A DNA stretch of 64,000 nucleotides from Chloroflexota bacterium (GTDB taxonomy: Bacteria; Chloroflexota; Anaerolineae; Promineifilales; Promineifilaceae). The DNA is taken from positions 3,130 to 67,129 of the forward strand of contig JAKQCM010000240.1 in the NCBI GenBank assembly GCA_029559155.1, in the 5' to 3' direction. The text below continues a report on this DNA, generated by a model with database tools. The stretch is not shown here.

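What the first reader, a model, noticed from the sequence alone, without database searches (positions are those of the whole stretch)
344..63456. Highly iterated octamer palindrome ACGGCCGT (HIP1-like), about one copy per 560 bp
My manual scan finds roughly 115 exact ACGGCCGT sites in 64 kb. With A and T near 0.21 and G and C near 0.29, the composition-based expectation is only about 1.5-2.

Sites occur in genes on both strands, in all three frames and in intergenic DNA (for example 20501 and 55911). About 20 one-mismatch relatives (CCGGCCGT, TCGGCCGT, ACGGCCGC, GCGGCCGT) are also present.

The only well-known analogue is HIP1 (GCGATCGC) of cyanobacteria, whose function is still debated. Over-represented uptake sequences (DUS/USS) are another precedent, but those are not palindromic octamers scattered in coding frames.

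The core contains the EagI/Eco52I-type site CGGCCG. A link to a methyltransferase, a repair or recombination signal, or a nucleoid protein is therefore conceivable. I am not aware of this word having been described.
Basis: seen in the sequence. Interest (0 to 1): 0.8.

Follow-up and report, generated by a model that had tools for sequence, protein, structure and literature searches.

The report, continued
Best explanation
ACGGCCGT is a clade-specific highly iterated palindrome (HIP) of a Promineifilaceae lineage (Chloroflexota, class Anaerolineae). It is the functional analogue of cyanobacterial HIP1.

SHOWN:
1. The word is 70-100 times over-represented.
2. Copies are made in place by point substitution in every codon phase and between genes. 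Synonymous changes are used wherever they suffice, and amino-acid changes are made as well.
3. Existing copies are protected from change.
4. The six central bases CGGCCG are held most tightly and the outer A/T less so. In some lineages the specificity extends to AACGGCCGTT.
5. The two half-sites evolve independently, and spacing is random.
6. The same pressure acts on every replicon in these cells: chromosome, plasmid/ICE-like elements and tailed phages.

INFERRED:
- The agent is a clade-specific protein that reads the symmetric duplex word. Most likely this is an orphan DNA methyltransferase of CGGCCG-type specificity, or a partner protein that reads the methylated site.
- The abundance is produced and kept by a self-reinforcing bias in post-replicative or recombinational repair. 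Heteroduplexes between a full site and any near-site are resolved toward the full site. This is a molecular drive, or ratchet, of the kind Elhai proposed for HIP1.
- Saturation is limited only by what the proteins tolerate.

I put about 0.9 on the 'HIP-class, DNA-level, recognition-driven' part. I put about 0.45 on the methylation-plus-biased-repair mechanism as the main cause of the abundance.
For: Size of the excess:
- 115 sites against 1.2 expected in the window.
- 552 against 7.9 (third-order Markov, sites masked) in 320 kb of pooled clade and phage DNA.
- Codon shuffle gives 12.6+/-3.2 against 108.

Near-saturation at the protein level:
- 59 of 62 TAV and 32 of 33 [NDHY]GR tripeptides use the word in the window.
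- 96% of 189 T-A-V tripeptides use it in pooled clade genes, against 0-35% ACG-GCC for other T-A-X contexts.
- TAV occurs 189 times against 15-39 for its permutations.

Made in place and then kept:
- Codon alignments show in-place substitutions and stepwise gains, for example CCTGCTGT > CCGGCCGT > ACGGCCGT.
- Site retention between lineages is 42-93%, against 8-30% for background 8-mers.
- Only 2 substitutions fall in 312 motif positions against 22.8 expected in the 92%-identical sister species, P=1.7e-8.

Pattern of near-sites:
- Inner one-off variants are depleted to 0.6 of expectation, equally for transitions and transversions. Outer one-off variants are enriched 2.9-fold. Elhai reported the same end-biased pattern for HIP1 (PMC4390886).

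No sign of structure or spacing selection:
- Half-site scores are uncorrelated, r=0.01.
- Spacing is Poisson-like: KS P=0.56, variance/mean 1.02.

Specificity drifts between lineages as a recognition protein's would:
- The word is an 8-mer in some lineages and a 10-mer in others. Only the hexamer CGGCCG is enriched in the basal lineage L332.

Other replicons:
- Phage and mobile-element DNA carries 2.0-4.0 sites/kb, including stretches not selected by motif. This fits a process inside the cell.
- A high density of CGGCCG in phages argues against an active CGGCCG restriction enzyme. That points to an orphan methyltransferase rather than a restriction-modification pair (inference).
Against: - No methyltransferase, Vsr, MutH-like or restriction gene was found in the window. 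No m5C methyltransferase motif was found in any motif-rich locus held when one search was run. The cognate enzyme is therefore purely inferred, and no methylation data were available.
- The repair ratchet is a hypothesis even for HIP1. It has never been shown biochemically.
- Elhai's specific rule (a G before the methylated C) does not explain the outer A/T here. CGGCCG already contains G-C internally.
- Density here (1.8/kb; 2-4/kb in phages) exceeds the roughly 1/kb saturation that model predicts.
- Density in phages and mobile elements is higher than in any of the 11 chromosomal loci sampled (0.7-1.8/kb). This is more easily read as positive selection on the word than as a neutral by-product.
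- Published conservation tests on HIP1 (Xu et al. 2018, PMC5861425) were taken to favour selection over biased repair.
Confidence: 0.45

Rival explanations
1. Each copy is kept by ordinary natural selection because the word, possibly when methylated, marks DNA as 'self' for a DNA-processing machine. It could enhance uptake, establishment or homologous recombination of incoming DNA, or act as an orientation-free Chi-like signal that stops a nuclease. Phages and plasmids would be selected to carry even more copies.
For: - Methylated HIP1 raises transformation and recombination efficiency up to more than 100-fold in Synechococcus PCC 7002, 'reminiscent of Chi' (bioRxiv 10.1101/2024.09.10.611283).
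- HIP1 abundance correlates with proteins the authors assign to a type IV secretion system and interpret as DNA-uptake machinery (bioRxiv 10.64898/2026.06.24.733823).
- Here, phage and mobile-element stretches not selected by motif carry 2.0, 2.65 and 3.55 sites/kb. That is above every chromosomal locus (0.7-1.8/kb).
- Sites are strongly conserved.
- Amino-acid sequences are bent to fit the word, as is known for uptake sequences (own knowledge).
Against: - Known uptake sequences and Chi are asymmetric. Uptake sequences are depleted, not enriched, in phages and recently acquired DNA (own knowledge).
- Phage DNA that enters by injection gains nothing from an uptake signal.
- Saturation of 96% at synonymous-permitted positions over thousands of sites would need strong per-site selection.
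- Spacing shows no regularity.
- Competence, RecBCD/AddAB specificity and the hosts of the phages are all unknown for this clade.
- The phage-versus-host comparison is not host-matched.
Confidence: 0.3
2. The word is the binding site of an abundant, dimeric nucleoid-associated or chromosome-organising protein, as proposed for HIP1 from its 10-90 kb periodicity. Its density is selected for chromosome architecture.
For: - The word is palindromic, with a weak palindromic extension (GGgaA-ACGGCCGT-TtcCC) and independent half-sites. This fits a symmetric dimer with a footprint of up to 18 bp.
- It is conserved across the clade.
- There is a HIP1 precedent (Xu et al. 2018, PMC5861425).
Against: - Flanking information is only 0.1-0.3 bit per position in the window.
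- Spacing at the 0.1-3 kb scale is Poisson-like.
- The same or a higher density in phage structural modules is not expected for a chromosome-folding signal.
- Periodicity at 10-90 kb cannot be tested in 64 kb.
Confidence: 0.1
3. The excess is a by-product of very-short-patch (Vsr-type) repair. An m5C methyltransferase methylates CGGCCG, deaminated T:G mismatches are corrected to C:G, and over-correction converts T-containing near-sites into sites. This would resemble CCWGG in E. coli.
For: - The core is a typical type II m5C target.
- Inner near-sites are depleted.
- Precedent: Dcm/Vsr in E. coli (own knowledge).
Against: - Depletion of inner near-sites is the same for transversions (O/E 0.61) and transitions (0.63).
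- Creating ACG-GCC from all synonymous codons needs every kind of base change, yet 96% of T-A-V tripeptides are converted.
- VSP repair in E. coli produces only a modest excess, not 70-100-fold (own knowledge).
- No vsr gene was seen.
Confidence: 0.05
4. The excess follows from amino-acid composition, codon usage or codon-pair bias.
For: Codon-shuffled genes still give 12.6 sites, about ten times the composition-only expectation.
Against: - 108 observed against 12.6+/-3.2, with a maximum of 22 in 500 shuffles.
- The residual 12.6 reflects peptides that the word itself has enriched: TAV 189 against 15-39 for its permutations.
- Sites occur in three phases, on both coding strands and in intergenic DNA.
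- Related Anaerolineae with similar GC content have none.
Confidence: 0.01
5. The copies are remnants of a small mobile or REP/MITE-like repeat.
For: None beyond the high copy number.
Against: - Nothing beyond 1-5 flanking bases is conserved.
- Copies sit in frame inside conserved genes such as rpoC and the H+-pyrophosphatase, with no length change relative to orthologues.
- Orthologous positions show point-substitution intermediates.
Confidence: 0.01

Closest known systems
HIP1 (GCGATCGC), the highly iterated palindrome of cyanobacteria
   Same: - GC-rich palindromic octamer whose central six bases form a type II-like site.
- Density of 1.8/kb lies within the HIP1 range of 0.3-2.7/kb (PMC4390886).
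- Found in all codon phases and in intergenic DNA, and not explained by codon usage.
- One-off variants concentrate at the first and last positions.
- Palindromic extension to a 10-mer in some lineages.
- Conserved between genomes far above control 8-mers.
- Clade-wide, with exceptional lineages.
   Different: - Different word and a different phylum (Chloroflexota, not cyanobacteria).
- No embedded GATC, so no Dam-type second methyltransferase site.
- The base before the first C is A, not G, so Elhai's G-meC rule does not explain the outer positions.
- The cognate methyltransferase is unknown.
- Long-range periodicity is untested.
- Phages and mobile elements are at least as rich as chromosomes. 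I found no equivalent statement for HIP1 in the papers read.
Alternate HIPs of single cyanobacterial strains (GGCGCC in Calothrix PCC 7103, GCsGC in Cyanothece PCC 7822, rCCGGy in Oscillatoria PCC 10802; Elhai 2015)
   Same: - A different GC-rich palindrome takes the HIP role.
- Specificity can shift between related lineages. Here: hexamer CGGCCG only in L332, the octamer in most lineages, and the 10-mer in three.
   Different: Those are 5-6-mers in sporadic single strains, and each is paired with an identified methyltransferase. Here an 8-10-mer is fixed across a whole multi-genus clade, and the enzyme is not identified.
DNA uptake sequences (USS of Pasteurellaceae, DUS of Neisseriaceae)
   Same: - About one copy per kb, genome-wide and including coding DNA in several frames.
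- Encoded peptides are enriched.
- Clade-specific.
- Accumulation by a drive rather than by transposition.
   Different: - Uptake sequences are asymmetric 9-12-mers read by a competence receptor.
- They are depleted in phages and recently acquired DNA (own knowledge).
- The word here is a perfect palindrome and is at least as dense in phages.
- Competence is unknown in this clade.
Chi sites (e.g. GCTGGTGG of E. coli)
   Same: A short over-represented word that marks DNA as self for a repair nuclease. The HIP1 transformation work invoked a Chi-like effect.
   Different: Chi is asymmetric, skewed with replication direction, and only a few-fold over-represented at about 1 per 4.5 kb (own knowledge). 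A palindrome cannot carry orientation, and the density here is about 8-fold higher.
EagI/Eco52I/XmaIII-type restriction-modification specificity CGGCCG
   Same: The six central bases are exactly this recognition sequence.
   Different: Targets of active restriction systems are normally avoided in host and phage genomes (own knowledge). Here the site is 4-7 times over-represented on composition and is abundant in phages. No such genes were found in the DNA examined.

Membership tests
Highly iterated palindromes (HIP class, as defined by Elhai 2015 and Xu et al. 2018) | A GC-rich palindromic oligomer that is the most frequent word of its length, at hundreds to thousands of copies per Mb and at least 15-fold over expectation | tested here: met
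   1,797 copies per Mb. It is the top octamer in the window. Observed/expected is about 96 (dinucleotide shuffles) or about 70 (third-order Markov, pooled).
Highly iterated palindromes (HIP class, as defined by Elhai 2015 and Xu et al. 2018) | Dispersed through coding DNA in all frames and through non-coding DNA; created by substitution, not by insertion of an element | tested here: met
   Codon phases 59/32/17 plus 6-7 intergenic sites. Codon alignments show in-frame point changes and no indels. Flanks are not conserved.
Highly iterated palindromes (HIP class, as defined by Elhai 2015 and Xu et al. 2018) | Excess not explained by codon usage or peptide selection | tested here: met
   Codon shuffle gives 12.6+/-3.2 against 108. 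96% of T-A-V tripeptides are spelled ACG-GCC-GTN, and TAV is 7-10 times commoner than its permutations.
Highly iterated palindromes (HIP class, as defined by Elhai 2015 and Xu et al. 2018) | One-nucleotide variants biased to the first and last positions; inner variants disfavoured | tested here: met
   Outer variants: 222 observed against 75.8 expected. Inner variants: 63 observed against 101.8 expected. In the window alone, 33 of 43 variants are outer.
Highly iterated palindromes (HIP class, as defined by Elhai 2015 and Xu et al. 2018) | Palindromic extensions of the core in some genomes | tested here: met
   AACGGCCGTT accounts for 24 of 28 sites in L084, 18 of 23 in L086 and 13 of 17 in L091, against 27 of 115 in the window.
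Highly iterated palindromes (HIP class, as defined by Elhai 2015 and Xu et al. 2018) | Motif copies conserved between genomes more than control oligomers | tested here: met
   Retention is 42-93% against 8-30% for background 8-mers. Substitution in sites is 10-fold lower than background against the sister species, P=1.7e-8. Within the species the trend is the same but not significant: 1 against 4.4 expected, P=0.07.
Highly iterated palindromes (HIP class, as defined by Elhai 2015 and Xu et al. 2018) | Shared by a phylogenetic clade, with exceptional lineages | tested here: met
   11 of 11 chromosomal loci inside one rpoC clade carry it (ten lineages plus the sister-species loci L335-L341). It is absent in basal L332 (0.16/kb) and in Anaerolineae at 68% rpoC identity or less.
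Highly iterated palindromes (HIP class, as defined by Elhai 2015 and Xu et al. 2018) | A DNA methyltransferase in the genome that recognises the word or its core | not testable with these tools
   None is present in the 64-kb window, and none was seen in the motif-rich loci held. Whole genomes of the clade and REBASE could not be searched.
Highly iterated palindromes (HIP class, as defined by Elhai 2015 and Xu et al. 2018) | Periodic distribution with a period of 10-90 kb (Xu et al. 2018) | not testable with these tools
   The window is 64 kb. At the 0.1-3 kb scale the spacing is Poisson-like.
HIP1 proper | The word is GCGATCGC, in cyanobacteria, with CGATCG and GATC methyltransferases | tested here: not met
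   The word is ACGGCCGT. The organism is a Promineifilaceae MAG. GCGATCGC is not enriched.
DNA uptake sequences (USS/DUS) | An asymmetric word read in one orientation by a competence receptor | tested here: not met
   The word is a perfect palindrome, and its extension is palindromic too.
DNA uptake sequences (USS/DUS) | Enriched in the core genome, depleted in phages and recently acquired DNA | tested here: not met
   Phage and mobile-element stretches not selected by motif carry 2.0-3.55 sites/kb, above chromosomal loci.
DNA uptake sequences (USS/DUS) | The organism is naturally competent and takes up motif-bearing DNA preferentially | not testable with these tools
   No cultured strain and no genome-wide gene inventory were available.
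Chi-type recombination hotspots | An asymmetric word with strand skew relative to replication | tested here: not met
   A palindrome is identical on both strands, so no skew is possible.
REP/MITE-type dispersed repeats | An imperfect palindrome of 20-40 nt or more with conserved flanks, mostly intergenic | tested here: not met
   Only 8-10 nt are conserved, about 94% of copies lie inside ORFs, and half-site scores are uncorrelated.

The most novel reading that the evidence does not exclude
ACGGCCGT is a palindromic 'self' mark read by a so far unknown DNA-processing or defence system of Promineifilaceae. It would work in either orientation, like an orientation-free Chi or an anti-nuclease or recombination signal, and possibly only when methylated. 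The clade's phages and conjugative elements would have evolved motif densities up to twice the host's in order to pass as self. Host-parasite conflict, and not repair bias, would then drive HIPs to extreme abundance, which would also point to a function for cyanobacterial HIP1.
Probability: 0.15. Interest if true: 0.85.

Novelty: new member of a known kind. Interest (0 to 1): 0.7.

Why it matters
- **An independent case.** In the papers I read, highly iterated palindromes are described only from cyanobacteria, and after 30 years the function of HIP1 is still debated. An equally extreme case with a different word in a different phylum turns a one-off into a comparative problem. Any explanation (orphan methyltransferase, repair ratchet, transformation or recombination signal, nucleoid site) must now work for both words.
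- **Good natural contrasts.** The clade offers neighbouring lineages with only the hexamer, the octamer or the 10-mer, and phages and conjugative elements that carry the word at 2-4 copies per kb.
- **Existing data may already answer it.** If I have identified their source correctly, the sister-species MAGs come from long-read sequencing of wastewater plants. Raw reads that could reveal methylation may therefore already exist.
- **Practical uses.** The word is a near-diagnostic signature for binning Promineifilaceae contigs and for assigning phages and plasmids to these filamentous activated-sludge and digester bacteria. It also distorts k-mer-based HGT detection and inflates the Thr-Ala-Val, Asn/Asp-Gly-Arg and Arg-Pro content of their proteins.

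Tried and rejected
1. **Maximal-order Markov expectation** (95.5 against 115). Rejected as a null: its sub-words are themselves almost all motif copies.
2. **Looking for the source genome or close relatives among GTDB representatives with rpoC**. Only relatives at 68% identity or less came back, and none had the word. Closer relatives were then reached through the search for homologous proteins plus look-up of encoding contigs.
3. **Hairpin or cruciform selection.** Left and right flank scores are uncorrelated (r=0.01), and complementarity is only z=1.75 above shuffled partners. Rejected.
4. **Regular spacing, as expected for a strand-discrimination signal selected for coverage.** Not seen (KS P=0.56, variance/mean 1.02).
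5. **Cognate methyltransferase, restriction enzyme or Vsr.**
   - Pfam scans of all called window genes found none.
   - A regex scan for m5C and N6/N4 methyltransferase motifs in the motif-rich loci held at that point found no m5C enzyme.
   - The phage-like contig L158/L345 encodes a D12-class (Dam-like) N6-adenine methyltransferase and a second N6_Mtase fragment. Nothing links them to this word.
6. **Metagenome scan with three sites in a row**. It returned mostly short contigs and many hits to an unrelated 12-bp satellite. It was of little use for neighbour statistics.
7. **Systematic assembly errors at the motif as an indirect sign of methylation.** This assumed long-read-derived MAGs (L335-L339). 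Differences between the assemblies look like ordinary SNPs and are depleted, not enriched, near sites.
8. **Fetching relatives of a phage terminase, to sample phages without motif bias**. It found only the query. Extending known contigs with edge proteins worked instead.
9. **Literature.** No paper in the held library has ACGGCCGT as a genomic repeat, or a HIP in Chloroflexi.

Full report
**Observation**

An exact search finds 115 copies of ACGGCCGT between 344 and 63456. 100 dinucleotide-preserving shuffles give 1.20 on average and never more than 4. ACGGCCGT is the commonest octamer in the window; the runners-up are its overlapping neighbours AACGGCCG (67) and CGGCCGTT (63). GC content is 54.4%.

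**Null models**

- *Synonymous-codon shuffle.* I shuffled synonymous codons within each of 49 called ORFs, keeping every protein sequence and each gene's codon usage. This gives 12.6 ± 3.2 sites (maximum 22 in 500 shuffles) against 108 observed in those ORFs.
- *Why 12.6 is already high.* That figure is ten times the composition-based expectation because the proteins are enriched in compatible peptides.
  - In the window, 59 of 62 Thr-Ala-Val tripeptides are spelled ACG-GCC-GTN, against 15% expected from codon usage. 32 of 33 [Asn/Asp/His/Tyr]-Gly-Arg tripeptides are spelled xAC-GGC-CGT.
  - In 236 kb of ORFs called in nine chromosomal loci of the clade, 96% of 189 T-A-V tripeptides use the word. 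Other T-A-X contexts use ACG-GCC in 0-35% of cases.
  - TAV occurs 189 times against 15-39 for its five permutations. NGR occurs 50 times against 6-19 for its permutations.
  - The DNA word therefore drives the protein sequence, not the reverse.
- *Maximal-order Markov.* This expectation is 95.5. It is not a usable null, because the 7-mers and the hexamer it uses consist mostly of motif copies.

**Anatomy**

- *Position in genes.* Sites fall in codon phase 0 (59), phase 1 (32) and phase 2 (17), on genes of both strands. Six or seven are intergenic.
- *Spacing.* It is indistinguishable from a Poisson process: mean 554 bp, CV 1.00, KS P=0.56 against an exponential, variance/mean 1.02 in 2-kb bins.
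- *Flanks.* Beyond the eight bases there is only a weak palindromic trend (GGgaA-ACGGCCGT-TtcCC, 0.1-0.3 bit per position). The two flanks of a site are uncorrelated (r=0.01). There is thus no selection for a longer hairpin and no repeat element around the word.
- *Near-sites in the window.* Of 43 one-mismatch relatives, 33 differ at position 1 or 8.
- *Near-sites, pooled.* In 320 kb of clade and phage DNA there are 552 sites against 7.9 expected (third-order Markov, sites masked). Outer one-off variants are enriched 2.9-fold. Inner ones are depleted to about 0.6, equally for transitions (0.63) and transversions (0.61) (earlier 207-kb version). The pooled loci are partly orthologous, so the P values are approximate.

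**Organism and distribution**

The window encodes rpoC (28025-32377, minus strand). GTDB representative genomes gave only Anaerolineae relatives at 68% identity or less, and none has the word or any other iterated palindrome.

The protein database holds a graded series of closer relatives. The sources name them 'Chloroflexota bacterium', 'Candidatus Promineifilaceae bacterium', 'Ardenticatenaceae bacterium' and 'Promineofilaceae_GCA_2746795'. Their syntenic loci all have ACGGCCGT as the top octamer:

| rpoC identity to window | Loci | Sites per kb | Form of the word |
|---|---|---|---|
| 93% | L082/L083 | 1.5-1.6 | 8-mer |
| 90% | L084/L085 | 1.0-1.15 | nearly always AACGGCCGTT |
| 84% | L086-L088, L091 | 0.7-0.98 | 10-mer (GC only 47-49%) |
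| 80% | L089, L090 | 1.6-1.7 | 8-mer |
| 78% | L334 | 1.44 | 8-mer |
| 76% | L333 | 0.69 | 8-mer |

One lineage at 77% identity (L332, GCA_963852745.1) has only 4 octamers (0.16/kb). It does have 61 CGGCCG hexamers, about 4 times the composition expectation, with no A/T preference. In a neighbour-joining rpoC tree L332 is basal to a single clade that contains all motif-bearing lineages. This is consistent with one origin followed by drift in specificity between 6, 8 and 10 bases.

**Evolution of sites**

- *How sites arise.* Codon alignments of 13 orthologous genes across seven lineages show that sites sit at homologous, ungapped positions. New sites arise by point substitution, with intermediates such as CCTGCTGT, CCGGCCGT, ACGGCCGT. 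Some arise through amino-acid changes, for example D-G-S to D-G-R.
- *Retention.* A site in one lineage is retained in another in 42-93% of cases, against 8-30% for background 8-mers in the same alignments. Third-codon-position identity in these alignments is only 43-66%.
- *Sister species.* Against L335-L341 (92.3% nucleotide identity over window 20498-41514), 38 sites are shared, 1-2 are window-only and 3 are sister-only. Only 2 substitutions fall in 312 motif positions against 22.8 expected (P=1.7e-8).
- *Within that sister species.* One of 328 motif positions is polymorphic against 4.4 expected (P=0.07).
- *What this cannot separate.* Nearly every compatible peptide is converted in every lineage. 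Conservation therefore does not by itself distinguish purifying selection from a strong conversion bias.

**Phages and mobile elements**

A scan of IMG/VR for two sites 10-40 bp apart returned contigs with 1.2-4 sites/kb.

Several are bona fide tailed phages:
- L092/L342 encodes terminase small and large subunits, portal, prohead protease and major capsid.
- L156 encodes a terminase large subunit.
- L175 encodes a head/protease protein and a terminase.
- L157 encodes a prohead protease.
- L096 encodes a portal protein.
- L183 and L210 encode tail proteins.

Others are not phages:
- L109/L344 looks like a plasmid or ICE: ParA, an FtsK/SpoIIIE-type translocase, an SLT transglycosylase, RadC and an anti-repressor.
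- L158/L345 carries ParB, two N6-adenine methyltransferase genes, a PAPS-reductase-like gene and a dCTP deaminase.

To remove the ascertainment bias I extended contigs from edge genes:
- The new 10 kb of the L342 structural module has 2.0 sites/kb.
- The new 10 kb of L345 has 3.55 sites/kb.
- A related phage found by protein similarity alone (L343) has 2.65 sites/kb.

T-A-V saturation and TAV enrichment in these loci match the host pattern. All three unbiased values exceed every chromosomal locus (0.7-1.8/kb; the densest 13 kb of the window is 2.46/kb). The hosts of these elements are not known, however.

**What it is not**

- Not a coding by-product.
- Not a mobile or REP-like repeat.
- Not a structured RNA or hairpin.
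- Not a promoter or terminator element: about 94% of sites are intragenic.
- Not an orientation-dependent signal such as Chi or KOPS, because a palindrome carries no orientation.
- Not an assembly artefact. It appears in independent JGI and Logan assemblies and in NCBI and ENA MAGs.

**Mechanism**

What is shown is a sequence-specific pressure on duplex DNA.
- It is strongest on CGGCCG and weaker on the outer A/T.
- It acts on each half-site independently.
- It converts or removes every kind of inner near-site.
- It protects existing sites.
- It operates on all replicons in the cell.

A Vsr-type deamination-repair by-product is disfavoured, because transversion neighbours are as depleted as transition neighbours and all synonymous codons are converted.

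My best-supported reading, by analogy with HIP1, has two parts. First, the CGGCCG core is the target of a clade-specific orphan methyltransferase or a reader of its product. In HIP1 the inner hexamer CGATCG is the target of an orphan m5C methyltransferase (PMC4390886). Second, a repair or recombination bias toward the marked full site ratchets near-sites into sites (Elhai's model).

Three observations fit this better than they fit optimisation by selection: the drift of specificity between lineages, the random spacing and the near-saturation.

Several points count against it:
- No enzyme has been identified.
- Elhai's G-meC rule does not explain the outer A/T.
- The density exceeds the predicted saturation of about 1/kb.
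- The higher density in phages and mobile elements is more naturally explained if the word benefits whatever DNA carries it.

That last point fits recent reports. Methylated HIP1 boosts transformation and recombination in a Chi-like manner (10.1101/2024.09.10.611283). HIP1 abundance also tracks proteins the authors assign to a type IV secretion system and read as DNA-uptake machinery (10.64898/2026.06.24.733823). I therefore give 0.45 to methylation-linked biased repair and 0.30 to direct selection as a self, recombination or uptake mark.

**Comparison and novelty**

The feature meets every HIP-class criterion I could test: abundance, dispersion, independence from codon usage, end-biased variants, palindromic extension, conservation and clade distribution. 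Two criteria could not be tested, the cognate methyltransferase and the 10-90 kb periodicity. It is not HIP1 itself, since both the word and the phylum differ. It fails the defining features of uptake sequences, Chi and REP elements.

Searches of the held literature found no description of ACGGCCGT as a genomic repeat, nor of any HIP in Chloroflexi. Elhai noted that 'very few bacterial genomes possess octomers as frequent as HIP1' (PMC3497702). I rate it a new member of a known kind. It is of real interest because it provides an independent second system for a long-standing puzzle, and the phage enrichment adds a new clue.

**Limits**

- Only about 0.3 Mb of clade DNA could be examined, much of it orthologous.
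- Gene calls are simple longest-ORF calls.
- Phage hosts are unassigned.
- No methylation data and no whole-genome gene inventories were accessible.

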